This document shows, one piece after another, positions 15,047 through 46,901 of a stretch of 64,000 nt of DNA. Each line of letters opens with the position of its first letter. Position 1 is the first letter of the stretch. The DNA lies in the NCBI GenBank assembly GCA_965222805.1, contig CBDCUX010000005.1:4068770-4132769 (forward strand), given 5' to 3'. Source of the DNA: Candidatus Poribacteria bacterium (GTDB lineage: Bacteria; Poribacteria; WGA-4E; PCPOR2b). The position numbers and the translations under genes are program-made. Under the pieces are notes generated by a model. That model saw only the letters and a program-made list of their open reading frames with translations, had not been told where the DNA came from and did not search any database.

Positions 15047-16453
15047 CTACTTCAAAAGTACCATTCGTCGTGTTTCGGAGAAGTCATCAGCTAAAAGCTG
15101 GTAAAAATAAACCCCGCTCGCCACGGACTGTCCGGTGTCGTCTTTACCATTCCAGTAGACTGCACTCTGTTTGCCCGTGTAAGCCCCTGCCGGCTGTTTT
15201 CCAACATTGATGGAGCGAATTAACTCGCCCTTGATGTTGTAGATTCGCACGGTTACAGTAGCGGCATCGGCGAGATAGTAGGGAATCCATGTTTCAGGAT
15301 TGAAAGGGTTGGGGAAATTTTGCATCAGGCTGGTGTGTTTGATGTCTCCAAGGGTCGTGAAGTGCTTATCCTGCGGTTCGACAGGACGCAAGAAATAAAC
15401 CGGATTCCATCTACCAAAGAAGTCCTTCTCGGGATTGTTCGTGAGGTTCTTCACGGCGCCGCCATCGGTATCCATGAGGTACAGTTCTGTATTCTTATCC
15501 CGTCTGGACTCAAATAAGACCTTTTGCCCATTGGGGGACAAGAGCGGATTTGCGTCTTTTCCTGGGTCATTGGTCAGATTGGTTTGATTGTTCCCATCGA
15601 GCTCCATCCCATAAATCTCCCAGTTTCCATCCCGCTTACTTTCAAAGACAATGCTGCTTTTTAGCCACTCGACATTTCGGTCGGTCTCATCATTATCGGT
15701 TAACTGCTTGAGGTTTTCTCCATCGGCGTCCATGACGAAGATTTCCCAATCGCCGTCTCTATTCGATTCAAAGAGAATCTTCGTCCCGTCCGGCGACCAG
15801 CGCGGGCGCTGGTCACCGGCGTCGTGCTTGGTGAGCAGCACCTGGTCGACGCCGGGTTTCCGGGTCGTCATATCCGCGATGACGATATCGAATGCGCCGC
15901 GCGGCCAAGCCACACGCCCACCATGAAAAGCTATCTTTGTCCCATCAGGGGACCAGGAGGCCTCGCGATCTTGGCCTTCTCCCTCGCCCGCCGCATTTGC
16001 CACATTGAAAGCGACGACATCATCTTCCTCGAAATCTAGCATGCCGACATCCCAATGGAGGGCGTTTGGCAGACCACCAAGCGACTCAACGAGCAGACGC
16101 TGCTCGCCCGTGGGCGACCATCGGGGTTTTTGCCATATTCCCCCAAACTTTCCCTGCATCAGGTCTGTCTGGTCTTTGTTTTTCACATCTATCGTATAGA
16201 TTTCAAAGCTTTCTCCGCCCCGTATATTACTGGTGAAGGCAATTGTCTGTCCATCTGGAGACCAATCGAAATCAGTCGTTTTGGCCTTGTTCTTTGTGAG
16301 TTGTTCAACATCGCCATTATTGAACAGGAGATAGATCTCTGGATCGCCGGATCTGCCTGAAAGAAAGGCTATCATTGGCACCTGCGCGTATGCTGCACCG
16401 ATACATAGGAGGGCTAAGCTTCCCACTAGGGTAATGATACCTTTGCGTGACAT
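15047..16453 (-). CDS. Secreted PD40/TolB-like beta-propeller protein with T9SS-type CTD, paralog 3 (the most divergent propeller)
   Basis: Start MSRKGIITLVGS at 16453 with AAGGAG RBS. AQVPMIAFLSGR N-terminus, PD40 repeats, conserved CTD ...NFPNPFNPETWIPYYLADAATVTVRIYNIKGE... Confidence 0.85.
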   Translation of the reverse strand: MSRKGIITLVGSLALLCIGAAYAQVPMIAFLSGRSGDPEIYLLFNNGDVEQLTKNKAKTTDFDWSPDGQTIAFTSNIRGGESFEIYTIDVKNKDQTDLMQGKFGGIWQKPRWSPTGEQRLLVESLGGLPNALHWDVGMLDFEEDDVVAFNVANAAGEGEGQDREASWSPDGTKIAFHGGRVAWPRGAFDIVIADMTTRKPGVDQVLLTKHDAGDQRPRWSPDGTKILFESNRDGDWEIFVMDADGENLKQLTDNDETDRNVEWLKSSIVFESKRDGNWEIYGMELDGNNQTNLTNDPGKDANPLLSPNGQKVLFESRRDKNTELYLMDTDGGAVKNLTNNPEKDFFGRWNPVYFLRPVEPQDKHFTTLGDIKHTSLMQNFPNPFNPETWIPYYLADAATVTVRIYNIKGELIRSINVGKQPAGAYTGKQSAVYWNGKDDTGQSVASGVYFYQLLADDFSETRRMVLLK

Positions 16454-16501
16454 TGTTAGGCTCCTTTTCAAGTGCTCCTACCCCATCCTTTGCAAGCCCT
16501 C

Positions 16502-17929
16502 CTATTTCATCACTACCATTCGTCGAGTTTCGGAGAAGTCATCAGCCAAAAGCTGATAGAAATAAACCCCACTCGCCACGGATTGTCCGGTGTCGTCTTT
16601 ACCATCCCAGTAAACTGCATGCTGTCGGCTCGTGTAAGCCCCTGCCGGCTGTTTTCCAACATTGATGGAGCGTATTGACTCACCCTTGACGTTGTAGATC
16701 CGCACGGTTACAGTAGCGGCATCGGCGAGATAGTAGGGAATCCATGTTTCAGGATTGAACGGGTTAGGGAAATTTTGCATCAAACTGGTGCGTTTGATGT
16801 CTCCAAGGGTCGTGAAGTATTTGCTTTGTGGCTCAACCGAACGGAGTTCAAACTGAGGATTCCATCTTGCATCTGTGTCATTCTCAGGATGATTCGTGAG
16901 ATTCCTCAGACCGGCACCATCGGCTTGTATGAAGTATATCTCTCGCTTTCCATCACGTTTGGACTCAAATAAAATTCGCGTCCCTTTGGCGGACCAAATG
17001 GGTTTACTATCACTTTTTTCGTGGTTGCTGAGATTAACTTGGTTGTTTCCATCGGGATCGGACCGATAAATCTCATAGTTGCCATCGCGGTTAGTTTCAA
17101 AAACGATGCCGCCGGGAGACCATTCAGCTCTTCGATCGGTCTTGTCATTTTCGGTAATCCGCGTAAGATTTTCGCCATCAATGCCTACGGTATAGATTTC
17201 CCAGTTGCCATCGCGCTTCGATTGAAACACGACCGCTGTTCCATCAGGCGACCACCGTGCGCGCTGGTCGGGTGCCTCATGATCGGTAAGATTTATCTGA
17301 TTTTTTCCGATAGCTCGTTTTTCTACATCAGCGACGAAAATATCGAACTGGGCTCTCTCTAAAACTTTCTTGCGCTCGCTCTCAAAAACGATCTTGGTTC
17401 CGTCAGGAGACCAAGAGGCTTCCAGATCTTGTCCGGCTGCTTCGCCATCTACGTTTGTGATGTTAATCAGCTCATCCACTTTGCCTTTTGCATCTAAGGT
17501 CAAGAGCCCTATATCCCAGCCGTTGGCGTTTGGTAGTCCTGCGGCGTAGACAATAAGCCGCAGGTCACCGGCAGGCGCCCATCGGGGTCCAGACAGTTTT
17601 AGTCCCGGTCCATCGGGCGGGCCTGTTAGGTTTGTCTGTTTCGGTTTTTGCGGGTCGGTGAGATCTATTAGAAACACGTCAAAGTTCTCTTCACCGCGCA
17701 CATTGGCATCGAAAGCAATGAATTCACCATCGGGCGACCATTCGGGAGTAAACACCTTGACTTTATTATTTGTGAGTTGCTTAATCTCTCCGTTGTCATA
17801 CAGAAGATAAACCTCATCGTCACCGGTGCGGTCAGAGAGGAAAGATGCCATTGGCACTTGAGCGTATGTGGAACCGATGAACAGGAGAAGTAAGCTTCCC
17901 ACTAGGGTGGTAATACCTTTGCGTGACAT
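16502..17929 (-). CDS. Secreted PD40/TolB-like beta-propeller protein with T9SS-type CTD, paralog 4
   Basis: Start MSRKGITTLVGS at 17929 with AAGGAG RBS. The C-terminal roughly 300 aa are nearly identical to paralog 2 at the DNA level. Confidence 0.85.
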   Translation of the reverse strand: MSRKGITTLVGSLLLLFIGSTYAQVPMASFLSDRTGDDEVYLLYDNGEIKQLTNNKVKVFTPEWSPDGEFIAFDANVRGEENFDVFLIDLTDPQKPKQTNLTGPPDGPGLKLSGPRWAPAGDLRLIVYAAGLPNANGWDIGLLTLDAKGKVDELINITNVDGEAAGQDLEASWSPDGTKIVFESERKKVLERAQFDIFVADVEKRAIGKNQINLTDHEAPDQRARWSPDGTAVVFQSKRDGNWEIYTVGIDGENLTRITENDKTDRRAEWSPGGIVFETNRDGNYEIYRSDPDGNNQVNLSNHEKSDSKPIWSAKGTRILFESKRDGKREIYFIQADGAGLRNLTNHPENDTDARWNPQFELRSVEPQSKYFTTLGDIKRTSLMQNFPNPFNPETWIPYYLADAATVTVRIYNVKGESIRSINVGKQPAGAYTSRQHAVYWDGKDDTGQSVASGVYFYQLLADDFSETRRMVVMK

Positions 17930-18074
17930 TATTAGCTCCTTTCCAAGCCCCAGAGCAGTTGCATGTAAATATTGTGTAGGACGGACGCACCCCAATTCCA
18001 AAAATCATGTCCGACTTCGGACTGCGTTATGATAGGACTTTGGCATACGACAATGAAAATCCAATCGCGGCATA

Positions 18075-18109
18075 GGTTTCCAACCCCAATTCATTGGGGT
18101 TAGGAAACC
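18075..18109. repeat. Perfect hairpin GGTTTCCAACCCCAAT-TCA-TTGGGGTTAGGAAACC, within a structured 250-bp intergenic region inside the PD40 array
   Basis: A 15-bp inverted repeat read directly. The neighbouring palindromes GTCCGACTTCGGAC (about 18022) and CCCGATCTATCGGGG (about 18150) are nested inside the imperfect inverted repeat GTTGCAGCGCAG...CTGCGCTACAAC. Confidence 0.6.
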
Positions 18110-18253
18110 CTGATTTCATCGCGGACAGGTTGCAGCGCAGCTACAATCCCGATCTATCGGGGTTCTGCGCTACAACGGGGGTTAACCCAAGGTTCTGATT
18201 GCTCAACTGCCTAATTCCTAATAACAGATGCAATTCAGCTATTCCAAGCCCTC

Positions 18254-19681
18254 CTATTTCATTACTACCATTCGTCGGGTTTCAGAGAAGTCATCAGCCA
18301 AAAGTTGGTAGAAATAAACCCCGCTCGACACGGATTGCCCGGTGTCATCTTTACCATCCCAGTAGGCTGCGCTCTGTTTGCCTGTGTAAGCCCCTGCTGC
18401 TTGTTGTCCAACGTCAATAGCCCGAACCAACTCGCCCTTGACGTTGTAGATCCGCACAGTTACAGAAGCGGCTTCGGCGAGATAGTAAGGGATCCATGTC
18501 TCAGGATTGAAGGGGTTGGGGAAATTTTGCATCAGGCTGGTGCGTTTGATGTCTCCAAGGGTGGTGAAATGCTTACTTTGTGGTTCGACGGAGCGGAGTT
18601 CAAAGACCGGATTCCAGCGCGCATAGGTATCATCGCCATCGGGATTGTTGCTGAGATTCACTAGACCGCCGCCATCGGCGTTCATGGTATAGATCTCCCG
18701 ATTGCCATCCCGTCTGGATTCAAATAGGATTCTTCTCCCTTTAGGTGACCAGATAGGGTGATTATCGCTTTTAGCGTCATTGGTTAGATTGACTTGGTTG
18801 TTGCCATCGGGATCCATGCGATAAATCTCATAATTGCCATCGCGCTGGCTTTCAAAGAGAATGCCGCCGGCTGACCAATTCGCCCTTCTGTCGGTCTTGT
18901 CATTGTTTGTCAATCGCAGAAGGTTTTCACCAGTGATATCAACCCGATAGAGTTCCCAATTGCCATCTCGTTTCGACTCAAATATAACGGCGGTGCCGTC
19001 CGGGGACCACTGTGCTTTCTGGTCAGGATGTTCATTATTGGTTAGATTGACTTGATTCTTTCCGGCACCTTTCTTCTCTGCGTCCGCTATAAATATGTCA
19101 AACTGTTTTTTACCGTTCAGCTTGTCGTTGCGTTCGCCCTGGAAGACAATCTTGGTTCCATCTGGCGACCATTCGCCGTTCTGATCTTGACCTACCCCTT
19201 CGCCTTCTGCATTTGTGATATTGATCAAGGCGCCCGCTTTGCCTGCATCTACTGTAAGCAGACCAACATCCCAGTTATCAGCATTTGGCAGCCCTGTGGC
19301 ATAAATAAGAATACGTGGGTCGCCTGCTGGTGCCCATTTAGGTTCATTCAATTTTAGACCAAGTGCGTCTCCTGTGAAATTTGACACGTCTGGTTTTTGT
19401 GGATCGGTCATATCAATTAAAAACAGATCGAAAGTCTCGCCACCACGCACATTGGCACTAAATGCGATAAAATTGCCATCCGGCGACCATTCAGGTGTCA
19501 GAGTTATTACCTTATTTTTTGTTGCTTGCACAATATTTCCATCGTGGTAGACGATGCAAACTTCATCCTTGTCGCCTACTTCACAAAGGTAGGATGCCAT
19601 TGGCACCTGCGCGTGTATTGAATTAATGAACAAAAAGGACACCAAACTCACTACTAGGGCGATAATATCTTTGCGTGACAT
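18254..19681 (-). CDS. Secreted PD40/TolB-like beta-propeller protein with T9SS-type CTD, paralog 5
   Basis: MSRKDIIALV signal peptide, AQVPMASYLCEV, PD40 repeats, CTD NFPNPFNPETWIPYYLAEAASVTVRIYNVKGELVRA... Confidence 0.85.
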   Translation of the reverse strand: MSRKDIIALVVSLVSFLFINSIHAQVPMASYLCEVGDKDEVCIVYHDGNIVQATKNKVITLTPEWSPDGNFIAFSANVRGGETFDLFLIDMTDPQKPDVSNFTGDALGLKLNEPKWAPAGDPRILIYATGLPNADNWDVGLLTVDAGKAGALINITNAEGEGVGQDQNGEWSPDGTKIVFQGERNDKLNGKKQFDIFIADAEKKGAGKNQVNLTNNEHPDQKAQWSPDGTAVIFESKRDGNWELYRVDITGENLLRLTNNDKTDRRANWSAGGILFESQRDGNYEIYRMDPDGNNQVNLTNDAKSDNHPIWSPKGRRILFESRRDGNREIYTMNADGGGLVNLSNNPDGDDTYARWNPVFELRSVEPQSKHFTTLGDIKRTSLMQNFPNPFNPETWIPYYLAEAASVTVRIYNVKGELVRAIDVGQQAAGAYTGKQSAAYWDGKDDTGQSVSSGVYFYQLLADDFSETRRMVVMK

Positions 19682-19812
19682 TATTAGCTCCTTTCCAAAG
19701 ATGATAAACTCCTTTCAACAGAGATAAGCGATTTATGGAAAACGATGGTGTAAGTGTAATGGAGGGCAACAATTGCCTGAAATTCCATTACCCTTACACC
19801 ACACAGATAGTT

Positions 19813-32102: not shown

Positions 32103-32891
32103 ATGACCGAAAATGTGCGGAGAATTGAGGCTGCGAAAGGTTGCTCACGACACCCCCAATCCCATTGGAGTATGGAGCAAATAGTGTGCCATCCATCCCT
32201 GCAAGTTACCCTGTTCGCTCTGATAATGTGTTTGCTTGCTGCTTTATGGGGGTGTTCGGATTATCAGAGCGGTGAGGCTGCTTATAAACGAGGAGACTAC
32301 AAAACCGCACTAAAGAAATTGCGACCACTCGCCGAGAAAGGTAACTCCAAAGCCCAGTTTCGGCTTGGCTGGATGTATGGCCATGGTGAGGGCGTTATTC
32401 AAAACGATGAAGAGGCAGTCGAATGGTATCGAAAAGCTGCCCAACAAGATCATGTTATAGCCCAGTTTAACCTCGGCGCTAGGTATGCAACCGGCGAAGG
32501 CGTTGTTCAGAACAATGAAGAGGCAATCAAATGGTATGAAAAAGCCATTGAACTAGGTCCTGCTGGAGACCAGGCTATCCTCGGCCTCAGATATGTAAAT
32601 GGTGCGGGCGTCGCTCAGGACTATGGCAAAGCACTCAAGTGTTTTCGCAAGGCTGTCGAGGGTGGCAATACCATAGCCCAACTTTACCTTGGCTCGATGT
32701 GCGAATCTGGCACGGGTGTCGATCAAAATTACGTTACGGCGTATATGTGGTATCATCGCGCTGGCACACTAGGTATTGAGGGAGCTCACGAAGAACGTGA
32801 TAAAATCACTGAAAAGATGACCATCGCTCAACTTCGTGAAGCCCAGCGTTTAGCGCGAGAATGGAAGCAACGCATAGATAACGCGAAGTAG
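32103..32891 (+). CDS. Secreted Sel1-repeat protein (about 5 repeats)
   Basis: Repeated A.AQF.LG.MY..G.GV.Q....A..WY.KAA units. N-terminal hydrophobic signal anchor. Confidence 0.85.
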   Translation: MTENVRRIEAAKGCSRHPQSHWSMEQIVCHPSLQVTLFALIMCLLAALWGCSDYQSGEAAYKRGDYKTALKKLRPLAEKGNSKAQFRLGWMYGHGEGVIQNDEEAVEWYRKAAQQDHVIAQFNLGARYATGEGVVQNNEEAIKWYEKAIELGPAGDQAILGLRYVNGAGVAQDYGKALKCFRKAVEGGNTIAQLYLGSMCESGTGVDQNYVTAYMWYHRAGTLGIEGAHEERDKITEKMTIAQLREAQRLAREWKQRIDNAK

Positions 32892-32985
32892 TCGAGTCAG
32901 TAAAAACAGTATCGTAGTCAACGCTAAACAATTTGCATTTGATACAGCCATCAGTCCTATATTGACACGAGAAAGGAAATTCACT

Positions 32986-34437
32986 ATGCTGCGAGTTACC
33001 TTTTCTGTTTTGATGTTGTGTCTGCTTACCGCTGCGTTCGTGTGGGCGGACTATCAGGAAGGTGTGGAGGCTTATGAACGAGGTGACTACGAAACCGCAC
33101 TACAAGAATTCCAACCGCTTGCCGAGGGCGGAGATCCCAAGGCTCAGTTTTATCTTGGACGGATGTATGCAAGGGGCAACGGCGTCCCCCAAGACGACGA
33201 AGAGGCAGCCAAATTATACAGAGAAGCCGCCGAGGACGGCGATACCATAGCCCAATTTGTTCTTGGGATCTGGTATGAAGATGGTAGAGGCGTTCCTAAA
33301 GACAAGGGGGAGGCAGCCAAATGGTACTATAAAGCCGCTCAACAAGGTTCTGATCTGGCACGGTATAAACTGAGCCGGATGTTTCCCACTAGCATGGACA
33401 TCCTTCAGAGCGACGAGGAGAAGACCGATTTATACAGAAAAGCCGCCGAACACGGCTACCCCAAAGCACAATTTCCGCTTGGTATGATGTATCAATACGG
33501 CTGGGGTGTCCCTCAAGACGATAAGGGGGCGATCAAGTGGTATCACAAGGCTGCCGAAAACGGCGATCCTTTTGCTCAGTTTGAGCTCAGCCTGAGATAT
33601 GAATATGGCTGGGGTGTCCCCCAAGACTACAAAGAGAATGCAAAATGGTACAACAAAGCCGCTCAACAATTTCATACCCTGGCCGGGTATAAACAATTTG
33701 GCTGGATGCCCCGCAGTTACGAGGAGGTTGCTCAGGAGATTGAGGGAATAATCAAGTGGTATCGAACGACTGCCGAGCACGGTTATACCAAAATACAATT
33801 CCGCCTTGCCAAGCTGTATGAATACGGTTGGGGTGTTCCTCAAGACGACCAAAAGGCGAGCAGATGGTATCACGCAGCCGCAAAACATGGCGACGTAGAT
33901 GCTCTGTTTGAACTCGTTTTGAGGCATGAACATGGTAGGAGTGTTCCTTGGAACAACGAAGAGGCAATCGAACGGTACAGCAAATCTGCCCAACAAAGCT
34001 TTGCCTCAGCACAGTACCGCCTTGGCTGGGCGTATTACAAAGGCGAAGGGGTTCCTCAGGATTATGGGGAGGCAGTCAAATGGTATAGGAAGGCTGCCGA
34101 ACAGGACCATGTCGGTGCCCAATATGCGCTTGGCTGGGCGTATTACAAAGGCGAAGGGGTACCTCAGGACTATGGGGAGGCAGTCAAGTGGTATCGAAAA
34201 GCCGCTGAAAAAGGCGATAGCAGTTCCCAGTACCGTCTCGGCGTGATGTATGAAAATGGCGAGGGAGTTGCTCAAGATTATGTAGCCTCCTATGTATGGT
34301 ATCATCTCGCCTCCCAAACATGTGGGCTTGAATCTGCTCGCAAGCAACGCGATAGAATCGCCGAAAAGATGACCAACGCCCAAATTGCTGAAGCCAAGCG
34401 TTTAGCGCGTGAATGGAAGCCGACGAGGGAAGACTAA
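32986..34437 (+). CDS. Secreted Sel1-repeat protein (about 11 repeats)
   Basis: Same Sel1 repeat architecture as the upstream gene. The C-terminal tail KMTNAQIAEAKRLAREWK matches KMTIAQLREAQRLAREWK in the neighbour. ATG 32986 has an AAAGGA RBS. Confidence 0.85.
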   Translation: MLRVTFSVLMLCLLTAAFVWADYQEGVEAYERGDYETALQEFQPLAEGGDPKAQFYLGRMYARGNGVPQDDEEAAKLYREAAEDGDTIAQFVLGIWYEDGRGVPKDKGEAAKWYYKAAQQGSDLARYKLSRMFPTSMDILQSDEEKTDLYRKAAEHGYPKAQFPLGMMYQYGWGVPQDDKGAIKWYHKAAENGDPFAQFELSLRYEYGWGVPQDYKENAKWYNKAAQQFHTLAGYKQFGWMPRSYEEVAQEIEGIIKWYRTTAEHGYTKIQFRLAKLYEYGWGVPQDDQKASRWYHAAAKHGDVDALFELVLRHEHGRSVPWNNEEAIERYSKSAQQSFASAQYRLGWAYYKGEGVPQDYGEAVKWYRKAAEQDHVGAQYALGWAYYKGEGVPQDYGEAVKWYRKAAEKGDSSSQYRLGVMYENGEGVAQDYVASYVWYHLASQTCGLESARKQRDRIAEKMTNAQIAEAKRLAREWKPTRED

Positions 34438-40104: not shown

Positions 40105-41460
40105 ATGTTGAAATCAAAGAATAGATTAGCTTTTGTAACACTCGTCACCCTCTGTAGTGTTATCACTCTTATTTGCGGACAAACTGCCTCCGCTCAAGAT
40201 AAACTCGTCATTATATCGCCACATTGGGAAGGGATCGAAACAGAGTTCGATACTGCGTTTAAGGCGTGGTATGTTGAGGAGACAGGACGTCAAGTCACTG
40301 TAGATTGGCTAGATCAGGGCGGGTCTTCTTCTGACTTCAGATTCATAGAATCGGAGTTTAAGCGGCTGCCCGAAGGCATCGGGATAGATCTCTTTTTCGG
40401 GGGTGGAACAGATAACTACCTCAAGCTCGCGGATAAGGGCTTGCTGGCTCCCTACAAACTATCAGAAATCCAGTTGGCACGAATTCCGAAAGAGATTTTT
40501 GGTATTCCCGTTTACGATCCGGAATATCGTTGGTACGGCACGGCGTTGTCGAGTTTTGGAATTATGTACAATGAGGAACTGCGTGCGCTTTTCGATTTGC
40601 CCGAAATCCGAACGTGGAACGATCTGACTCACCCCAAACTCGTCAATCGTGTTGGCGCAGCAGACCCCCGTGAAAGCGGGAGTGCACACATGATGTATGA
40701 GCTTATCCTGCAAGGCTACGGCTGGGAGAAGGGCTTTGAGTTGATTACGCAACTTGGCGCGAATGTCAGGGGGTTTTCCGCAGGGTCAAATGCCATTCCT
40801 AGAGATGTCGCTGCAGGGCAAGTCATCTACGGCATGGCAATTGACTTCTATGCTTACGGTCAGATTGCTGTTATCGGCGCAGACAAAATTCATTATGTTG
40901 TGCCACATGATGCTGCGGTCGTCAGCCCTGACTCAATCGCCATCCTCAAAGGCGCGCCCAATATGGCGGTCGCCCAGAAATTTCTCGATTTTGTCCTTTC
41001 AGATCGGGCACAAAAACTTTGGGTATTACGCGACACCGACCCGGAGGGACCGAAGTGGAAAGGGGGGTTGAACCGTAGCAGTGTTATCCCAGCCCTGTAC
41101 GATGAACTCGGGGATCGCTGTGTCGCCGCCAATCCGTTTACGATGGAGCTGAACCCCATTGACTATGATGCGGTAAAAGGTGGGATACGCTGGGACATCG
41201 TCGGAGATCTCATCGGTGCACTTGTCATTGAGCCGCATAAAGATTTGGTCAGCACGTGGAAAGCCATCAATAAAAGTGAGGATCCAGAGAAACGCGCTGC
41301 CGCGATTCAGATCTTGGGTCAGATCCCAATATCAGAAGCGGAAGCACTAGAACTCTCTCAGGGGAGTTGGCAAGCACCAGACTTCCGTAACCAGAAGCTG
41401 AAGGAATGGAGAGCATTCGCCAAAGAGAAGTTCAAGGAAGCGAAGAAAGTGGTGAAGTGA
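40105..41460 (+). CDS. ABC transporter periplasmic substrate-binding protein (family 1; Fe3+/polyamine-type)
   Basis: Signal peptide and a two-lobe SBP fold typical of the AfuA/PotD class. No cognate permease or ATPase nearby. Confidence 0.65.
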   Translation: MLKSKNRLAFVTLVTLCSVITLICGQTASAQDKLVIISPHWEGIETEFDTAFKAWYVEETGRQVTVDWLDQGGSSSDFRFIESEFKRLPEGIGIDLFFGGGTDNYLKLADKGLLAPYKLSEIQLARIPKEIFGIPVYDPEYRWYGTALSSFGIMYNEELRALFDLPEIRTWNDLTHPKLVNRVGAADPRESGSAHMMYELILQGYGWEKGFELITQLGANVRGFSAGSNAIPRDVAAGQVIYGMAIDFYAYGQIAVIGADKIHYVVPHDAAVVSPDSIAILKGAPNMAVAQKFLDFVLSDRAQKLWVLRDTDPEGPKWKGGLNRSSVIPALYDELGDRCVAANPFTMELNPIDYDAVKGGIRWDIVGDLIGALVIEPHKDLVSTWKAINKSEDPEKRAAAIQILGQIPISEAEALELSQGSWQAPDFRNQKLKEWRAFAKEKFKEAKKVVK

Positions 41461-41469
41461 TAAGGTGCT

Positions 41470-41505
41470 AGGCACACCCGTAGGTCGGGCATCCTACCCG
41501 ACTCA
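41470..41505. repeat. Reverse-complement copy of the CCCGACCTACGGGT dispersed repeat, with adjacent hairpin GTCGGGCATCCTACCCGAC
   Basis: ACCCGTAGGTCGGG at 41476-41489 is the reverse complement of the motif at 20876-20890. Confidence 0.5.
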
Positions 41506-41737
41506 TAACCCTAGGGGGTGCAACGGGCGTATTTTCGCTCGAGAGGAGCGATATGTCTGTAGAAAGCTATGTGTCTAGTGCTCGCGCTCCAGCGGAGCGC
41601 AATGTGTATAGAATGCTATTTTAGTTTGCTGATTGCGTTGTGAACGTCTGCAATTGCTAACCATACCTCATGATGAGAGTTAGGTGCATGGTGTCCAAGT
41701 GTCAACTGTCACTATTAAAGTTTGAAGGAGGGATTGC

Positions 41738-42079
41738 ATGAGTCTTCGGCTTACGTGGGTTCGTGGGTATATTAACTCGGATCCTGGTGTGTCTGGTGTT
41801 TATATTCTGTATTACTACCCTCGATATTCTGTTTTGCCGGGCGGTCGTCGGGTTATTTATGTGGGGCAGGGTAATGTTGGGCAGAGATTTGCTGCTCATG
41901 CGAGAGATCCTAGGATTAAGCGGTATGGTTTTGAGGATATATATACTGTGTGGGCACGGGTTTCTTCAGCGAGTCAAAAGCCTGTGGAGAAATACTTACA
42001 TTTTATGCTAAATCCGATAGTAAGTACCTCGAATCATGCTACTATGACGGCTGTGAATTTGCCGTGGGGTGAGGTTTAG
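41738..42079 (+). CDS. GIY-YIG nuclease family protein
   Basis: GVYILYY...(10)...VIYVGQG...R..AH...E..N arrangement, i.e. the GIY, YIG, Arg, His, Glu and Asn positions of the GIY-YIG fold. Lies in a G+T-rich compositional island. Confidence 0.6.
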   Translation: MSLRLTWVRGYINSDPGVSGVYILYYYPRYSVLPGGRRVIYVGQGNVGQRFAAHARDPRIKRYGFEDIYTVWARVSSASQKPVEKYLHFMLNPIVSTSNHATMTAVNLPWGEV

Positions 42080-42190
42080 TTGTGATAGAAATTGTGGCGG
42101 GCTTGATCTAGAAGATTATTGTTGGTTTTTGGATTGGGGCGGTGTTGGCTTGCTTTGTGTATTTGATTAAAAGGTGGAGGAGGTGAGAGA

Positions 42191-42427
42191 ATGAGAGCAC
42201 TTTGGCGCGGTTGGGAGGATGTTAATCCTGAACTTGTGGATTGTATTCAGCTTATTCAGCACCGGGATAATGATTGGGTTATCTATATGGTGCATTATGT
42301 TGCGAGTAATTCTCGTAGCTCAGACGCGATATGTGAGGGTAGGGACGAAATAGATATGAGAAGGAAGGCTCATGAGATAGCAGGTCGTTTTGGCTGTCAA
42401 GTGCTTGAGTCTGGAGGTCCTAGGTAA
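42191..42427 (+). CDS. Hypothetical protein (island-encoded)
   Basis: 78-aa ORF with a GGAGG RBS, same G+T-rich composition as the GIY-YIG gene. Confidence 0.4.
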   Translation: MRALWRGWEDVNPELVDCIQLIQHRDNDWVIYMVHYVASNSRSSDAICEGRDEIDMRRKAHEIAGRFGCQVLESGGPR

Positions 42428-42454
42428 TAGGAGGACTGAGCAACACCAAAAAAA

Positions 42455-42658
42455 ATGAAGAAATCCACAGCAAAGGGAATCGGCCGACTCTGGTTAGCAG
42501 GAACCGTCATCTGCAGCGTAGGCGCAGGAATGTACTCAAAGCACAAAAACCCATTCAACATAGACGAAGGTTTCAACGCCTTCATGATAACCTTGATAAC
42601 CGGGCTAGTAAGCTACGTTCTAGTCAGATGGGCATTAAGAGCATTCACACAACAATGA
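42455..42658 (+). CDS. Hypothetical small membrane protein (uncertain; A+C-rich region)
   Basis: 67-aa ORF with two hydrophobic segments. Caveat: A+C-rich sequence is intrinsically poor in stop codons, so the ORF may be a compositional artefact. Confidence 0.25.
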   Translation: MKKSTAKGIGRLWLAGTVICSVGAGMYSKHKNPFNIDEGFNAFMITLITGLVSYVLVRWALRAFTQQ

Positions 42659-42676
42659 TAACTGAAAGGAACCATC

Positions 42677-42976
42677 ATGAACCACGAAACAAGAGAAGCC
42701 ATCCAAGGAAACAAGACCATCAAGCTGACCCTCGCATTCCATACGACCAAGATTGCTGAAGAAGAAGGTCACATAGTACCAAAGCACGCATGGTCAAACG
42801 GAGCAATCAAATTAAGAACCAATTCATTACATGGTATCAGCAAGACCAAGAGCGTCCCCTTCAATTCACTAATGGAACTTCCAGCGGTACTTGAACAACT
42901 ACTAATCGACGAAGGAATTACACTACATCCAAGTCATAGAACAAAAAGATACATGCACATTAACATCGAGGACTAG
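42677..42976 (+). CDS. Hypothetical protein (uncertain; A+C-rich region)
   Basis: 99-aa ORF, weak AAAGGA RBS, same caveat as above. Confidence 0.25.
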   Translation: MNHETREAIQGNKTIKLTLAFHTTKIAEEEGHIVPKHAWSNGAIKLRTNSLHGISKTKSVPFNSLMELPAVLEQLLIDEGITLHPSHRTKRYMHINIED

Positions 42977-42985
42977 ACAAAAAAA

Positions 42986-43013
42986 TGCCCCCACGATCTT
43001 CACCGCGGGGGCA
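42986..43013 (+). terminator. GC-rich hairpin TGCCCCC-(14 nt)-GGGGGCA
   Basis: 7-bp G/C stem directly after the stop of the 42677-42976 ORF. No T-run follows. Confidence 0.3.
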
Positions 43014-43191
43014 TGTCCCCTTCAAACTACTACGAAATAAAGAACTACTACGGCTCAAAAGGCTAGTTGAGACTTCTATTGTTTGCGGCATTAAACATTT
43101 GGTAAATTGGTTAATTCATTTAATCACTCAACTAATAACCTGATAGCCTGAACGTGGAGGCACTCACCCTCACCATAGGAGATACCCAACA

Positions 43192-43521
43192 ATGCCAATA
43201 ACATGGAAAGTCGAGATAGTAAAAGTATCAGATAACAATGAATCACTAGAGCACTCAGCAAACTTCGACGCAAACACAATTACAGAGGCTCAAGAAAAAG
43301 CCGACGAAGTAGTCAGCCAACACATACCACAACTTTCTGGAAAGATTCCAGACATTAACTGGACACTAGACCAAGAAAAAAACCGTGTAGTTAAAGTCTA
43401 TTACCCACTAGGGATAAGACCAATCAGCCGACAAGCAAGAGTAGGCATAGAGATTTCACTTACAACCGAATGGTACGTAACAATCAAACCACTCAACACA
43501 TCACTTCAAGACATCCAGTAA
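43192..43521 (+). CDS. Hypothetical protein (island-encoded; A+C-rich region)
   Basis: 109-aa ORF with an AGGAG RBS 10 nt upstream, the best-supported of the three A+C-rich ORFs. Confidence 0.35.
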   Translation: MPITWKVEIVKVSDNNESLEHSANFDANTITEAQEKADEVVSQHIPQLSGKIPDINWTLDQEKNRVVKVYYPLGIRPISRQARVGIEISLTTEWYVTIKPLNTSLQDIQ

Positions 43522-43524
43522 TTA

Positions 43525-43599
43525 TGAGAGGTGGGTGACACATAAAACGCTTCCCCTTTTCCAACTCTCATTTTCGGGGAATCAGTCGCCCACCTCTCA
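43525..43599. repeat. 15-bp inverted repeat TGAGAGGTGGGTGAC ... GTCGCCCACCTCTCA, one mismatch, 45-nt spacer, at the right edge of the compositional island
   Basis: Arms at 43525-43539 and 43585-43599, read directly. Confidence 0.5.
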
Positions 43600-43775
43600 C
43601 CCCAAAAGCCTATAACTGAGCAACGCCTTTGATTCAAGAATCATGCCGGATTTAAGCCTGTATCTACATAGTTCCAAAATCTTTTGGTTGTATAGAAAAC
43701 AGCCTGACATACACCTCAAAATGTCAACACAACAAAGCCACAGACTCACCCCCAATACGGCTTTCCTATCTCCCC

Positions 43776-44855
43776 TCAAGCCTCCCAAAGCAGGTTAACC
43801 GCACTCGCCTTAATAATAAAGTAGCACACCGTCCCCTCCACAAGTCCAAGCTGCTCGCGGGCATCGCTCGTAACCTCCACCGACAGCAGATGCCCCTCAA
43901 TATCGACCGATAGCATCACACGCCCCGCTTGGACAGCGATTTGCCGGATTGTCCCGCGCAAAATATTCCGTGCACTCATCCGCAGATTTGGGTCCATCGC
44001 GACGATGATATCCCGTGCCCTGATGGCGATGGGCATCGTCGCGCCGGGCTCCGTCTCCGTATACGAAACCATCAGCCTTTGTTCCCCCAATGCCAACTCC
44101 GTCACGCCGCGCTCCTCGGACGCAACGACCACCGGCAAAGCGAGAATATTCTCCACCCCCGTCATTTGGGCAACGGGCAACGCCGAAGGAAACGCTAGCA
44201 GTTGGTGGGGCTCGCCGCGCCCCGTGATCCGACCTTCGGAGAGCAAAAAGGCTTCGTCTGCAAGTGCCATCACTTCTGAAATGGAGTGCGTGACGTAAAG
44301 GAGGGGGATGTCAAACGCTTGTTTGATGTGATAGAGGTAGGGCAGAATGCGGTTTTTCAAGCCGGCATCCAGAGATGTAAGCGGCTCGTCCATTAATAGC
44401 AAGCGCGGCGACATCCCCAAAGCGCGTGCAATGGCGACCCGCTGCCGTTGACCGCCGGAGAGTTGGCTTGGATATCGATCCAACAATTCCCCGATTTCAA
44501 GGATATCAATAATTGTATTGGTGTCAATCCGTTTTTCACTATTGAGTCGGTGGGGACGACCGTAGGAGATATTTTGTCGAACCTTCAGGTGCGGAAAAAG
44601 ATGCCCTTCCTGAAAGACATACCCAAAATGACGCTTTTCTGGTGGCAGACATTTTTTGTGGTAGGAGGAATACAACGTTTGACCGGAAAACAGGAGTTCG
44701 CCTTCGTCAGGGTGTAGGATGCCACTAATACAGTTGAGTAGTGTGCTTTTACCACTTCCTGAGGGTCCCAGAAATGCCGTTACTTTCTCCGTGATGGTGT
44801 GATCAATCTCAATCTGAAAATTTCCAAGCCGCTTGCGAAACTTGAGTTTTAACAT
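43776..44855 (-). CDS. modC: Molybdate ABC transporter ATP-binding protein with C-terminal TOBE/MOP domain
   Basis: Walker A GPSGSGKST, signature LSGGQRQR, Walker B LLLMDEP. The extra roughly 120-aa C-terminal TOBE-like domain is typical of ModC. Confidence 0.85.
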   Translation of the reverse strand: MLKLKFRKRLGNFQIEIDHTITEKVTAFLGPSGSGKSTLLNCISGILHPDEGELLFSGQTLYSSYHKKCLPPEKRHFGYVFQEGHLFPHLKVRQNISYGRPHRLNSEKRIDTNTIIDILEIGELLDRYPSQLSGGQRQRVAIARALGMSPRLLLMDEPLTSLDAGLKNRILPYLYHIKQAFDIPLLYVTHSISEVMALADEAFLLSEGRITGRGEPHQLLAFPSALPVAQMTGVENILALPVVVASEERGVTELALGEQRLMVSYTETEPGATMPIAIRARDIIVAMDPNLRMSARNILRGTIRQIAVQAGRVMLSVDIEGHLLSVEVTSDAREQLGLVEGTVCYFIIKASAVNLLWEA

Positions 44856-46496: not shown

Positions 46497-46901
46497 ATGA
46501 AAAAGTTAGTTATAGCAACAATCGTTATTGCGCTATGTATAATTGCAAGTATTCTACAAAGTCAACAGTCCACTAAAGAAACAATCATTAGAGAAAAGCT
46601 AATTATCACTGACGAATACGGAAACAAAAAAATCGTTTTCACTGCCGCCCACGATGGTGCTATCGTTGAAATTAAGCACAAAGAAACAAGGATAACATTA
46701 GGAGTTGGGGATATGGGTGCTATACTTGATCTCGCTCATGACGAAGCAGAAACTAAGCGAGTCATATTACACACAAAACATGGGAAACCCGCAATAGAGT
46801 TACATCACGGCAAAAGCACCATAATCTTATTATTCGACAGCAACAGAACACCCATTATAGCAGCAGTAGATAAAGACGGGAAGATAAAAAAAGTAGAATG
46901 A
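46497..46901 (+). CDS. Hypothetical secreted/membrane-anchored small protein (AT-rich gene)
   Basis: 134-aa ORF with an N-terminal hydrophobic segment. AAA/ATA-rich codon usage unlike its neighbours. Confidence 0.45.
   Translation: MKKLVIATIVIALCIIASILQSQQSTKETIIREKLIITDEYGNKKIVFTAAHDGAIVEIKHKETRITLGVGDMGAILDLAHDEAETKRVILHTKHGKPAIELHHGKSTIILLFDSNRTPIIAAVDKDGKIKKVE

What the first reader, a model, noticed from the sequence alone, without database searches (positions are those of the whole stretch)
41500..43780. Compositional island with extreme keto/amino strand asymmetry that inverts sharply at about 42.43 kb
Between the SBP gene and modC, the plus strand is about 65% G+T from about 41.70 to 42.43 kb. 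This stretch holds the GIY-YIG nuclease gene and a 78-aa ORF with T/G-rich codons. The plus strand then switches within a few tens of bases to about 62-65% A+C from 42.44 to about 43.78 kb. Flanking genes show neither bias. Skew of this strength and polarity is characteristic of DNA that has spent time single-stranded, for example rolling-circle or ssDNA replicons, or of strand-specific deaminase editing. The flip suggests two oppositely oriented segments. The island is bounded on the right by a 15-bp inverted repeat (43525-43599), and a copy of a dispersed repeat lies at its left edge (41470-41505). The three plus-strand ORFs in the A+C-rich half may be artefacts, because stop codons are rare in A+C-rich sequence
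Basis: seen in the sequence. Interest (0 to 1): 0.65.

Follow-up and report, generated by a model that had tools for sequence, protein, structure and literature searches.

The report
Mirror-skewed two-kilobase foreign gene islet
A 2-kb piece of foreign DNA in a sponge-symbiont (Poribacteria) chromosome carries five real small genes, and its two halves show the same extreme, mitochondrion-like one-strand mutation footprint on opposite strands, which is unusual for bacterial DNA and whose cause is not settled.

Summary
The highest and lowest G+T windows of the whole 64-kb window both lie in this region. The polarity switches within about 17 nt (42426-42442), in the ORF2/ORF3 spacer.

The skew sits at third codon positions of five co-oriented + strand ORFs. 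G+T at position 3 (GT3) is 0.84 and 0.75 in the left half, and 0.18, 0.30 and 0.23 in the right half. Across 1017 ORFs of at least 90 aa from this window and related Poribacteria loci, GT3 averages 0.51 (sd 0.056). The island holds both extremes of that set.

Four-fold sites read T>G>A>C in the left half and the exact complement in the right half (p=0.55 for a difference). ORF1, ORF4 and ORF5 have homologues elsewhere, and none of those reaches the window's values. ORF3 has only indirect support.

The island (41614-43677) sits in an insertion hotspot between the SBP gene and modC. It is absent from all 16 syntenic relatives.

Best reading, at moderate confidence: two foreign gene modules each carry a long-term, deamination-type, single-strand mutation footprint and were joined with opposite polarity. 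No replication (Rep) gene, integrase or known mobile-element family was found. The GIY-YIG call for ORF1 is only weakly supported.

The parts
40105..41460 (+). Host gene for a periplasmic solute-binding protein (SBP), the left anchor of the hotspot. Composition is unbiased.
   Evidence: 451-aa ORF. Orthologues at 60-92% identity in 80 Poribacteria loci. GT3 0.52.
41480..41502 (+). REP-like palindrome GTAGGTCGGGCATCCTACCCGAC in the conserved spacer.
   Evidence: Unique in the window at up to 3 mismatches. An orthologous palindrome is present in L013, L018 and L023, and related GTAGGTCG hairpins in L014.
41536..41613 (+). Two tandem hairpin units (CGCTC-N5-GAGCG followed by ATGT.T.TAGAA). The second ends in TGTATAGAA, which is the exact left border of the variable cargo.
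   Evidence: The alignment shows all genomes identical up to ...AATGTGTATAGAA and unrelated immediately after it.
41614..43677 (+). The foreign island proper: 2064 bp, GC 0.43-0.45 against 0.50 for the host.
   Evidence: Borders come from flank homology with relatives. The island is absent from all 16 syntenic relatives. Both host junctions are confirmed in an independent Logan contig, L001, at 100% identity.
41614..42430 (+). Block A: + strand rich in G+T (63.5%).
   Evidence: Four-fold sites of ORF1+ORF2: T48 G28 A9 C4. The ORF1-ORF2 spacer is 74% G+T with 5% C.
41738..42079 (+). ORF1, 113 aa, a real gene of a small family found mainly in viral contigs. It may have a GIY-YIG-like fold. GT3 0.84.
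   Evidence: Homologues P0002 and P0003 (36-39% identity) plus five IMG/VR viral contigs (31-42%), all with GT3 0.48-0.59. AlphaFold2 (AF2) model has pLDDT 54. The best PDB hit is the UvrC GIY-YIG domain at E 0.15. Pfam, NCBIfam and PDB sequence searches were negative.
42191..42427 (+). ORF2, 78 aa, an orphan. GT3 0.75.
   Evidence: Called as a gene in independent assemblies. Intact with 3 amino-acid changes in the 97.6% variant L163. No homologue found in viral contigs; the large protein collections were not searched with it.
42426..42442 (.). Polarity switch point, covering the ORF2 stop codon and the start of the ORF2-ORF3 spacer.
   Evidence: Best change points all fall at 42426-42442. G+T is 0.636 to the left and 0.381 to the right.
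42435..42447 (+). Direct repeat copy 1, ACTGAGCAACACC, at the start of block B.
   Evidence: A repeat placed this way occurs in 14 of 3000 block-preserving shuffles.
42431..43677 (+). Block B: + strand rich in A+C (61.7%).
   Evidence: Four-fold sites of ORF3-5: A70 C26 T14 G5, the exact complement ordering of block A (chi-square p = 0.55).
42455..42658 (+). ORF3, 67 aa, a probable small membrane protein. GT3 0.18.
   Evidence: Coding-type periodicity: T at position 3 is 0.03, position 2 is T-rich, position 1 is A/G-rich. Called and intact with 2 amino-acid changes in L163. Not called in L001 or L002 and absent from the protein collection.
42677..42976 (+). ORF4, 99 aa, a member of a widespread conserved family of unknown function. 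GT3 0.29-0.30.
   Evidence: Homologues P0006-P0008 (46-53% identity) and 67 metagenome loci. Family GT3 is 0.41-0.65. G+T at codon positions 1+2 (GT12) is the lowest of 53 members.
42985..43014 (-). G+C-rich hairpin followed by T7 on the - strand, which looks like an intrinsic terminator for leftward transcription. On the + strand it sits just after ORF4 but has no T tract.
   Evidence: Fold z-scores are -5.2 (- strand) and -4.7 (+ strand).
43192..43521 (+). ORF5, 109 aa, a real gene of a small family. GT3 0.23.
   Evidence: Six full-length homologues at 35-49% identity. Their genes have GT3 0.45-0.47. AF2 model has pLDDT 77 and pTM 0.67.
43525..43599 (+). Strong stem-loop (15-bp outer stem plus an inner stem) directly after ORF5.
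   Evidence: MFE -34.7 kcal/mol, z = -6.0. No Rfam match.
43615..43627 (+). Direct repeat copy 2, ACTGAGCAACGCC, at the end of block B.
43678..43775 (-). Conserved host spacer. In relatives it lies upstream of a - strand gene, contains TTGACA on the - strand, and is A+C-rich on the + strand in all relatives.
   Evidence: The last windows of the relatives' spacers have G+T 0.34-0.47.
43776..44855 (-). Its 3' end shares the + strand A+C richness.
   Evidence: Orthologues at 89-94% identity in relatives. GT3 is 0.57 here and 0.63-0.70 in several relatives. I did not verify the modC family assignment.

Best explanation
**What it is.** The region is a 2,064-bp horizontally acquired islet (41614-43677). 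It lies at a recombination hotspot between the SBP gene and modC of a Candidatus Poribacteria chromosome. It encodes five co-oriented small proteins of unknown function.

**What the skew is.** The odd composition is a mutational footprint, not a coding artefact and not a property of the host locus. In each half, one DNA strand has lost C and A and gained T and G at sites free to vary. This is the pattern of cytosine and adenine deamination on a strand that is often single-stranded. The exposed strand is the + strand in block A (ORF1-2) and the - strand in block B (ORF3-5).

**Most likely history (inferred).** Both modules evolved for a long time on mobile or extrachromosomal DNA whose replication or transfer exposes one strand. 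Candidates are rolling-circle replication, strand-displacement replication or ssDNA transfer. The modules were then joined with opposite polarity relative to that strand. Block B may have entered as a 1.18-kb insertion flanked by a 13-nt direct repeat just after ORF2. The composite then landed in the hotspot.

**Shown versus inferred.** Shown: the footprint, the foreignness, the reality of ORF1, ORF4 and ORF5, and the sharp switch. Inferred: the ssDNA cause, the donor type and the order of events.
For: 1. **The skew is concentrated at codon position 3.** GT3 is 0.84 and 0.75 against 0.18, 0.30 and 0.23. Positions 1 and 2 stay near normal, so the proteins were under selection while the bias built up.
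2. **The spectra mirror each other.** Four-fold sites give T48 G28 A9 C4 in block A and A70 C26 T14 G5 in block B. The two are indistinguishable after complementing (p = 0.55). Each differs from the host at p = 1.7e-13 and 1.9e-25. This points to one process acting on opposite strands.
3. **Purine content does not flip** (0.53 and 0.55), so the flip is independent of transcription sense.
4. **Amino-acid composition is dragged the same way.** ORF4's G+T at codon positions 1+2 (GT12) is 0.389, below all 53 family members (mean 0.458, sd 0.025). ORF5's 0.408 is below its three homologues. This fits mutation pressure rather than selection on synonymous codons alone.
5. **Homologues of ORF1, ORF4 and ORF5 elsewhere do not reach these values** (0.48-0.59, 0.41-0.65 plus the L086 copy at 0.68-0.70, and 0.45-0.47). 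The extreme state is therefore derived in this element's lineage.
6. **Skew behaves as a property of modules.** The closest ORF4 homologue (53% identity, L086) sits in a two-cassette block bounded by palindromic repeats. That block is keto-rich on the coding strand (GT3 0.68 and 0.75), the opposite polarity to the window copy. Its neighbours are normal (0.45, 0.47). The 0.75 gene is the top outlier among 534 background ORFs.
7. **The switch is sharp and a repeat brackets block B.** The switch falls within 17 nt at a gene junction. A 12/13 direct repeat brackets block B (42435-42447 and 43615-43627). A repeat placed this way occurs in 14 of 3000 shuffles.
8. **The island is foreign.** It is absent from 16 syntenic relatives. 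Their spacers range from 279 bp to 6.6 kb and hold other, unskewed cargo.
9. **The host's own replication-type skew is much weaker.** It moves the mean GT3 of a locus's same-strand genes only to 0.41-0.64.
10. **A second copy exists.** A 97.6% variant from another sample spans the switch with the same GT3 values. It differs by 20 transitions and 2 transversions.
Against: - No donor replicon was found. There is no Rep, relaxase, integrase or transposase in the island, and no DNA similarity to 50,697 phage or 72,556 plasmid records.
- I know of no bacterial plasmid or phage with synonymous-site skew this strong (own knowledge, not tested).
- The 13-nt repeat is short, and its p of about 0.005 is post hoc.
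- The 97.6% variant already holds the junction, so the two blocks have not been seen apart.
- Identical spectra in both blocks fit a single replicon with a polarity switch equally well.
- The five genes are tightly packed and co-oriented (27-nt and 18-nt spacers across and after the switch). They look like one operon, which is a coincidence under the two-module history.
- The transition excess in the variant (10:1) is not clearly above the host's 2-3.5:1 given only 22 differences.
Confidence: 0.4

Rival explanations
1. The island is one integrated mini-replicon, or a fragment of a plasmid or phage, and the switch is a replication landmark. Under bidirectional theta replication, the G+T to A+C change along the + strand is the polarity of a terminus. 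The origin would then lie at the junction of the island ends in a circular form. Alternatively, a linear element copied by strand displacement from both ends would give this polarity directly.
For: - The mutation spectrum is the same in both halves (p = 0.55), as expected from one replicon.
- There is a single sharp switch in a non-coding spacer.
- All genes are compact and co-oriented.
- The junction is conserved in the 97.6% variant.
- Leading strands enriched in G+T, and skew extremes at origin and terminus, are established knowledge. General reviews appeared in the search (titles and abstracts only, not read).
Against: - There is no initiator, Rep or polymerase gene, no iterons and no inverted terminal repeats at the ends.
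- Forks meeting on a 2-kb molecule should blur the switch and weaken the skew near it. Instead GC skew is strongest (0.53) just left of the switch.
- The magnitude is several times any replication skew seen in the 80 Poribacteria loci.
- There is no match to known plasmids or phages.
Confidence: 0.2
2. A strand-specific DNA (or RNA-intermediate) deaminase repeatedly edits these mobile modules. This could be a defence enzyme acting on incoming single strands, or a diversification system. Selection then removes damaging changes, as APOBEC editing is thought to have shaped retroviral genomes (own knowledge). Polarity would depend on which strand enters or is exposed.
For: - The spectrum is purely of the deamination type, with C and A lost and T and G gained.
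- Skew comes in cassette-sized blocks of either polarity.
- Differences between the two variants are 20 transitions to 2 transversions, with many amino-acid changes (10 non-synonymous, 5 synonymous).
Against: - No deaminase was found in the island or next to the L086 block.
- Both C->T and A->G are needed, which means two enzyme specificities or spontaneous chemistry.
- Residual C shows no clear sequence-context preference in dinucleotide ratios.
- The position-3 concentration shows long-term equilibrium rather than bursts.
Confidence: 0.12
3. The skew was made in place by convergent transcription. Rightward transcripts over ORF1-2 and leftward transcripts from the conserved - strand promoter-like flank would expose the non-template strand of each half, in transcription bubbles or R-loops, to deamination.
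For: - The polarity fits. The non-template strand would be + on the left and - on the right.
- The conserved - strand TTGACA-containing flank at 43678-43775 lies upstream of a - strand gene in relatives.
- A canonical - strand terminator lies at 42985-43014.
- The A+C richness continues into the host flank and the 3' end of modC.
Against: - The - strand terminator lies at 42985-43014, yet ORF3 and ORF4 to its left are as skewed as ORF5.
- The island is younger than the split from relatives whose SBP gene differs by 13-16% in DNA, and host genes in the same transcriptional setting are not skewed.
- The L163 variant has the same GT3 values.
- The L086 block shows skew in a different context.
Confidence: 0.08
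4. The composition is selected, not mutational. Examples would be G+U-rich and A+C-rich mRNAs tuned for low structure, for escape from or sensitivity to a sequence-specific RNase or Rho, or for a polar DNA motif.
For: - Block B RNA is predicted to be less structured than GC-matched host windows (-20 to -39 kcal/mol for most 200-nt windows, one at -47, against -44.9 +/- 8).
- Position 3 is where such selection is cheapest.
Against: - Block A RNA folds as well as or better than controls (-47 to -59), so there is no common structural logic.
- The same protein family carries opposite skews in the window and in L086.
- Amino-acid composition is dragged too.
- Non-coding DNA between ORF1 and ORF2 is as skewed as position 3 (74% G+T, 5% C).
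- There is no long complementarity between the halves, only arms of 17 nt or less.
- No enriched k-mer stands out.
Confidence: 0.08
5. The region is an assembly or sequencing artefact, such as a chimeric join or strand-specific base-conversion error.
For: Nothing specific. The host record is a metagenome-assembled genome.
Against: - Two independent Logan assemblies reproduce the island and both junctions at 100% identity.
- A third sample gives a 97.6% variant.
- Conversion errors would hit all codon positions equally, but C is 0.21-0.22 at positions 1 and 2 and 0.05 at position 3 of ORF1.
Confidence: 0.02

Closest known systems
Strand asymmetry of vertebrate mitochondrial DNA (heavy strand G+T-rich, light strand A+C-rich, attributed to deamination of the displaced single strand)
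   Same: The ordering at freely varying sites is the same: T>G>A>C on one strand. The magnitude is similar, with GT3 near 0.2 or 0.8. Genes on either strand simply carry the bias. The mtDNA values are from my own knowledge.
   Different: This is a 2-kb insert in a bacterial chromosome. The polarity flips once while gene orientation stays constant. No gradient along the element is visible (0.84, 0.75 | 0.18, 0.30, 0.23). No replication machinery is encoded.
Replication-associated GC/keto skew of bacterial chromosomes and plasmids (leading strand G+T-rich, sign change at origin and terminus)
   Same: There is a sign change at a single point. The base pairs affected are the same. Poribacteria relatives show this ordinary skew.
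   Different: Here the deviation of GT3 from 0.5 is about 0.20-0.34, against 0.14 or less for locus means in the relatives. It is confined to 2 kb. Flanking host genes are unbiased.
Integron-type gene cassette arrays and other arrays of small promoterless genes separated by palindromic sites
   Same: The genes are small and co-oriented, of unknown function and of mixed composition. Island gene families recur in such arrays (L086, L157, L155). There is a stem-loop after ORF5. Recombination of integron attC sites as single strands is known biology (seen as titles and abstracts; papers not read).
   Different: There is no integron integrase in or beside the island and no repeated attC-like site between the ORFs. 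The stem-loop lacks the RYYYAAC/GTTRRRY cores. I am not aware that integron cassettes show such skew (own knowledge).
Single-strand transposons of the IS200/IS605 family and REP-associated elements
   Same: The cargo begins exactly 3' of a short sequence next to a host hairpin (…GGAGCGCAATGTGTATAGAA|). Different cargo sits at the same point in other genomes. There is a strong subterminal stem-loop near the right end. Use of a single-stranded intermediate on one fixed strand would give a strand-specific footprint (the IS200/IS605 mechanism is from own knowledge).
   Different: There is no TnpA, TnpB or RAYT gene. The left hairpin belongs to the host flank, not to the element. No second copy of the island is seen anywhere.
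GIY-YIG nucleases (for ORF1 only)
   Same: The protein has GVY...YVGQG...R...H...E...N motifs, a predicted beta-beta-alpha-beta-alpha order, and a best PDB fold hit to the UvrC GIY-YIG domain.
   Different: There is no Pfam, NCBIfam or PDB sequence match even at E = 10. The model has low confidence (pLDDT 54). The fold hit is at E = 0.15.

Membership tests
GIY-YIG nuclease superfamily (ORF1) | Significant sequence match to the GIY-YIG domain model or to a solved GIY-YIG protein | tested here: not met
   Pfam gives 0 families at E <= 1 for ORF1, and none for 8 family members at E <= 10. NCBIfam gives nothing relevant. PDB profile searches give 0 hits at E <= 10.
GIY-YIG nuclease superfamily (ORF1) | GIY and YIG motifs on two adjacent strands, followed by conserved Arg, a catalytic Glu and a C-terminal Asn | tested here: inconclusive
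   Invariant across 8 homologues: G20 V21 Y22, G43 Q44 G45, R50, H54, E84, N107. The pattern resembles the motif set, but the correspondence was read by eye, not aligned to the family.
GIY-YIG nuclease superfamily (ORF1) | Three-stranded sheet with flanking helices (beta-beta-alpha-beta-alpha) | tested here: inconclusive
   The AF2 model has that order of elements, but pLDDT is 54. The only low-rmsd PDB hit is the UvrC GIY-YIG domain 1yd6 (E 0.15, probability 0.96, TM 0.58).
Rolling-circle plasmid or ssDNA phage | HUH-type Rep/initiator gene, or phage structural or replication genes | tested here: not met
   No Pfam or NCBIfam hit of any relevance. PHROGs and PADLOC give only E >= 0.005 hits to families of unknown function or Csx27.
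Rolling-circle plasmid or ssDNA phage | One polarity of strand bias over the whole element | tested here: not met
   The polarity inverts at 42426-42442.
Rolling-circle plasmid or ssDNA phage | Sequence similarity to known plasmids or phages | tested here: not met
   blastn (word size 11) of the island against 50,697 phage and 72,556 plasmid records gives no match at E <= 1e-3. ORF1 relatives do occur on 5 IMG/VR viral contigs.
Integron gene cassettes | attC site (imperfect palindrome with RYYYAAC and GTTRRRY cores) at the 3' end of each cassette | tested here: not met
   Only one stem-loop is present, after ORF5 (43525-43599), and it has no such cores in the sequence read. No repeated palindrome lies between ORF1/2, ORF2/3 or ORF3/4.
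Integron gene cassettes | Integron integrase (IntI) and attI next to the array | tested here: inconclusive
   None lies in the island or in the two flanking host genes. The rest of the 64-kb window was not scanned for recombinases.
IS200/IS605-type single-strand transposon | TnpA (Y1 HUH) and/or TnpB gene | tested here: not met
   No such Pfam match in any of the six ORFs scanned.
IS200/IS605-type single-strand transposon | Insertion exactly 3' of a short target sequence, with subterminal hairpins in the element | tested here: inconclusive
   Cargo starts exactly after TGTATAGAA beside a hairpin, in several genomes. That hairpin is host flank. A strong stem-loop lies 78 nt from the right end.
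Ordinary chromosomal replication skew | Bias shared by neighbouring genes over tens of kb, with magnitude in the genome's range | tested here: not met
   Flanking genes have GT3 0.51-0.57. In the window, + and - strand genes average 0.52 and 0.51. In relatives the locus means of same-strand genes span 0.41-0.64.
Mitochondrion-like single-strand deamination footprint (a mechanism class, not a gene family) | T>G>A>C at four-fold sites on the exposed strand, with the complement on the other | tested here: met
   Block A: T48 G28 A9 C4. Block B: A70 C26 T14 G5. Host: near even.
Mitochondrion-like single-strand deamination footprint (a mechanism class, not a gene family) | Gradient of bias with time spent single-stranded (distance from the origin) | tested here: inconclusive
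   GT3 by gene is 0.84, 0.75 | 0.18, 0.30, 0.23, with no monotonic trend. There are too few genes to judge.
Mitochondrion-like single-strand deamination footprint (a mechanism class, not a gene family) | A single-stranded intermediate actually exists | not testable with these tools
   This needs reads or experiments that detect ssDNA or circular forms.

The most novel reading that the evidence does not exclude
Mobile gene modules in sponge-symbiont communities may be moved or attacked through a route that repeatedly exposes one defined strand. This could be a cassette-scale single-strand mobilisation system using the hairpin-TGTATAGAA type of site, or a strand-specific deaminase acting on incoming DNA. 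Keto/amino skew would then record which strand of each module travels. The window island (two polarities side by side) and the two-cassette block in L086 would be the first examples.
Probability: 0.15. Interest if true: 0.8.

Novelty: new variant of a known kind. Interest (0 to 1): 0.55.

Why it matters
- **A possible tracer of ssDNA history.** Strand bias of this strength is textbook for animal mitochondria. To my knowledge it has not been described for small pieces of bacterial mobile DNA. If the footprint records time spent single-stranded, synonymous-site keto skew could be used to find gene modules that move or replicate through single-stranded intermediates, and to tell which strand is used, directly from metagenomes.
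- **A link to cassette biology.** It would bear on how small gene cassettes travel between bacteria. This statement rests on my own knowledge of the field.
- **A practical point for annotation.** Such islands break composition-based gene finders. ORF3 was not called in two of three assemblies.
- **If the explanation is ordinary.** If this is only transfer from an unsampled replicon with a very asymmetric replication mode, the finding still points to a donor type missing from current phage and plasmid collections.

Tried and rejected
1. **Artefact.** Rejected, because independent assemblies agree and the bias is specific to codon position 3.
2. **Spurious ORFs in the A+C-rich half.** Rejected for ORF4 and ORF5 through homologues and a confident predicted fold. 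ORF length alone is weak evidence: the longest + strand ORF reaches 109 aa in 3.7% of shuffles of block B.
3. **The two halves as a long inverted repeat or mutually pairing RNAs.** Rejected. Only chance-size inverted repeats are present, with arms of 17 nt or less.
4. **TGTATAGAA (41605-41613 and 43689-43697) as a target-site duplication.** Rejected. The right copy is conserved host sequence (ATAGAAA in relatives that lack the island).
5. **A conserved partner gene that would give ORF4 a function.** None found among 67 loci.
6. **Function from family and fold searches.** Pfam, PHROGs, PADLOC, NCBIfam, Rfam, PDB sequence searches, and PDB and viral fold searches gave nothing usable.
7. **Selection for unstructured mRNA.** This fits block B only.
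8. **Motif avoidance or enrichment.** Dinucleotide ratios and top 4-mers are unremarkable.
9. **ACTGAGCAACACC as a family-wide site.** An exact copy overlaps the stop codon of the ORF4 homologue in L092, but no other locus has it.
10. **Literature.** Four full-text searches found only general work on strand asymmetry and integrons, and nothing on cassette-scale skew. I read none of these papers in full.

Full report

Yes. On the + strand, G+T is 63.9% over 41700-42430 and 37.8% over 42440-43780. The 64-kb window as a whole is 49.9%. In 700-nt windows across the whole window (mean 0.499, sd 0.035), the 13 highest values lie at 41301-41901 and the 15 lowest at 42501-43301.

GC skew reaches +0.53 just left of the switch and AT skew reaches +0.42 to the right. 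A two-segment likelihood scan places the switch at 42426-42442, and cumulative keto excess peaks at 42434. This interval covers the ORF2 stop codon and the first bases of the 27-nt spacer before ORF3.

**2. Where does the bias sit?**

It sits at third codon positions of five + strand ORFs.

| ORF | Coordinates | Length | G+T at position 3 (GT3) |
|---|---|---|---|
| ORF1 | 41738-42079 | 113 aa | 0.84 |
| ORF2 | 42191-42427 | 78 aa | 0.75 |
| ORF3 | 42455-42658 | 67 aa | 0.18 |
| ORF4 | 42677-42976 | 99 aa | 0.30 |
| ORF5 | 43192-43521 | 109 aa | 0.23 |
| SBP (host control) | 40105-41460 | 451 aa | 0.52 |

Positions 1 and 2 of the island ORFs are close to ordinary. In ORF1, C is 0.21, 0.22 and 0.05 at positions 1, 2 and 3.

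- **Four-fold sites.** ORF1+2 have T48 G28 A9 C4. ORF3-5 have A70 C26 T14 G5. Host genes are near even.
- **Two-fold sites.** These show the same choices: T over C (46:9) and G over A (20:10) on the left, and C over T (58:17) and A over G (46:17) on the right.
- **Mirror symmetry.** After complementing, the two spectra are indistinguishable (chi-square p = 0.55). Each differs from the host at p = 1.7e-13 and 1.9e-25.
- **Purine content.** It is 0.53 and 0.55 in the two halves, so it does not flip.

One process has therefore acted on opposite strands, while the coding sense stayed the same.

**3. How unusual is it?**

Among 1017 ORFs of at least 90 aa from this window and 80 related loci, GT3 has mean 0.513 and sd 0.056. 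ORF1 is the maximum (next 0.71). ORF5 and ORF4 are the two minima (next 0.34).

Ordinary replication-type skew does exist in Poribacteria. It moves the mean GT3 of a locus's same-strand genes only to 0.41-0.64. Among 534 ORFs from unrelated metagenome loci the range is 0.32-0.75.

**4. Are the genes real?**

- **ORF1.** It has homologues at 36-39% identity (P0002, P0003) and on five IMG/VR viral contigs at 31-42%.
- **ORF4.** It belongs to a well-conserved family, with P0006-P0008 at 46-53% identity and 67 metagenome loci.
- **ORF5.** It has six full-length homologues at 35-49% identity and a confident predicted fold (pLDDT 77).
- **ORF2 and ORF3.** These are orphans. Both are intact in a 97.6% identical variant from another sample (L163, SRR5469148), where ORF3 is also called as a gene. 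ORF3 was not called in the two exact copies and is not in the protein collection. ORF2 was searched only against viral contigs.

ORF length alone is weak evidence.

The homologues do not reach the window's values. GT3 is 0.48-0.59 for ORF1 relatives, 0.41-0.65 for 59 ORF4 relatives, and 0.45-0.47 for ORF5 relatives. The L086 copy of ORF4 is the partial exception (section 6). The extreme state is therefore derived in this element's lineage.

Amino-acid composition has been dragged in the same direction. G+T at positions 1+2 of ORF4 is 0.389, below all 53 relatives (mean 0.458, sd 0.025). For ORF5 it is 0.408 against 0.447-0.509. That argues for mutation pressure rather than selection on synonymous sites alone.

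**5. What is the setting?**

The host is a Candidatus Poribacteria bacterium, identified from 80 loci recovered with the SBP protein. In the 16 closest relatives that keep SBP and modC together, the spacer varies from 279, 287, 317 and 353 bp up to 6.6 kb. It holds different, low-GC, unskewed cargo, and none of it is related to ORF1-5.

- **Left border.** It is exact. All genomes share a hairpin followed by AATGTGTATAGAA and diverge immediately after it, at window 41613|41614.
- **Right border.** Homology resumes at 43678.
- **Island.** It spans 41614-43677, which is 2,064 bp.
- **Independent confirmation.** Two Logan assemblies reproduce it at 100% identity, and L001 spans both junctions.
- **Right flank.** The conserved flank at 43678-43775 and the 3' end of modC are themselves A+C-rich on the + strand in all relatives.

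**6. A second example**

The closest ORF4 homologue (53% identity) lies on L086, a 54-kb contig from ERZ25072076. It sits in a row of small genes downstream of a Xer-like tyrosine recombinase gene, and the genes around it (7364-8732) are separated by a palindromic repeat (TCCGATAA...TTATCGGA).

There, exactly two adjacent cassettes are keto-rich on the coding strand (GT3 0.75 and 0.68). This is the opposite polarity to the window copy (0.29). Their neighbours are normal (0.45, 0.47). The 0.75 gene is the top outlier among 534 background ORFs.

Skew therefore behaves as a property of modules. It can have either polarity relative to the gene.

**7. What most likely happened**

The spectrum (loss of C and A, gain of T and G on one strand) is what deamination of single-stranded DNA gives. 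In ordering and size it resembles what I recall for vertebrate mtDNA (own knowledge).

My preferred reading is that two modules carry this footprint from a long history on DNA that exposes one strand, and that they were joined with opposite polarity. Supporting points:
- The switch is sharp and falls at a gene junction.
- A 12/13 direct repeat (ACTGAGCAAC[A/G]CC at 42435-42447 and 43615-43627) brackets block B. A repeat placed this way occurs in 14 of 3000 shuffles.
- The L086 block shows skew confined to cassettes.

Points against:
- No donor was found.
- The island has no replication or recombination gene.
- The 97.6% variant already contains the junction.
- The genes look like one compact operon.

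I give this reading 0.4.

**8. Rivals**

1. **A single integrated mini-replicon whose terminus or origin is the switch (0.2).** It explains the identical spectra. It does not explain the lack of any replication gene or terminal repeats, or the fact that the skew is strongest right at the switch.
2. **Recurrent strand-specific deaminase editing (0.12).** It is compatible with the spectrum and with 20 transitions to 2 transversions between variants. No deaminase is nearby, and the host's own ratio is already 2-3.5.
3. **In-situ convergent transcription (0.08).** The polarity fits, and there is a - strand terminator at 42985-43014 and a conserved - strand promoter-like flank. ORF3 and ORF4 lie beyond that terminator, and host genes are unskewed.
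4. **Selection on RNA or DNA composition (0.08).** Block B RNA is predicted to be weakly structured, but block A is not. The same family carries opposite skews.
5. **Artefact (0.02).**

**9. ORF1 as a GIY-YIG nuclease**

The motif pattern and invariant residues are suggestive (G20 V21 Y22, G43 Q44 G45, R50, H54, E84, N107). The only low-rmsd PDB match of a low-confidence model is the UvrC GIY-YIG domain (E 0.15).

Pfam, NCBIfam and PDB sequence searches are all negative. The label should be 'possible GIY-YIG-like'.

**10. Verdict**

The footprint is of the single-strand deamination type and has two polarities. However, the genes are co-oriented, ORF4 and ORF5 at least are real, and nothing identifies a rolling-circle or ssDNA replicon.

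This is a new variant of a known kind of feature (strand compositional asymmetry) at an unusual scale and strength. The mechanism is open, and more metagenome scanning and read-level analysis could settle it.

Noticed in passing
window 41461-43775; L006-L023 around 9354-15935: The SBP-modC spacer is an insertion hotspot in Poribacteria, ranging from 279 bp to 6.6 kb. Cargo in relatives is mostly on the - strand. It includes a zinc-ribbon membrane protein (MALIACPECRR...), a protein of about 276 aa, and proteins of about 475-500 aa with the motif YRFRS...IYFASPDELNDPMEGFRD.
   Followed up: partly
L019 10645-10817; L010 10975-11090: Inside the larger spacers there is a junction made of a copy of the right flank, including 17 nt of the modC 3' end, directly followed by hairpin unit 2 and TGTATAGAA. 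It looks as if whole spacer units had been duplicated or inserted in tandem.
   Followed up: partly
L155 5900-5975 and 6440-6515; L086 6517-6581 and 6918-6982: A repeat of about 65-75 nt (...CCTCCCCACGCCT[CG]C[CT]TTG[GT]GGCGAAA...) flanks the ORF5 homologue in L155 and occurs twice in L086. It has no Rfam match. It may be a cassette boundary or a structured RNA shared between sponge-metagenome contigs.
   Followed up: partly
L086 7364-8737: A palindromic repeat, TCCGATAA-N-TTATCGGA, separates consecutive small genes downstream of a Xer-like tyrosine recombinase gene. This is an integron-like cassette array without a recognisable IntI.
   Followed up: partly
L092 6281-6293: An exact copy of the 13-mer ACTGAGCAACACC, which brackets block B in the window, overlaps the stop codon of a distant (43% identity) ORF4 homologue in a 64% GC contig and starts a terminator hairpin. 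No other family member has it, so it is probably coincidence.
   Followed up: yes
window 46497-46901 (+): A 134-aa A-rich orphan ORF next to modA has the third-lowest GT3 (0.34) of the Poribacteria set. It is absent from the relatives' loci. The composition is AT-rich rather than keto/amino-skewed.
   Followed up: partly
L037 (all genes), L013/L022/L023, L084; window as a whole: Replication-type skew differs strongly among Poribacteria. In L037 the + strand genes have GT3 0.58-0.71. In L013, L022 and L023 the two strands give 0.43-0.46 against 0.58-0.59. The window's own genes give 0.52 against 0.51. modC GT3 ranges from 0.57 here to 0.70 in relatives with about 90% protein identity.
   Followed up: partly
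L086 7418-7969: The most keto-skewed gene outside the window (GT3 0.75) encodes a 183-aa protein with a helix-hairpin-helix motif (LHGVGDAVASAIL). The Pfam HHH_2 match is at E 0.018, below the family cut-off.
   Followed up: partly
window 12200-19700 and 32390-34420: There are tandem paralogous gene arrays (five genes of about 1.5 kb each with internal 126/132-nt repeats) and a run of 108-nt repeats in two adjacent genes. These are unrelated to the finding.
   Followed up: no
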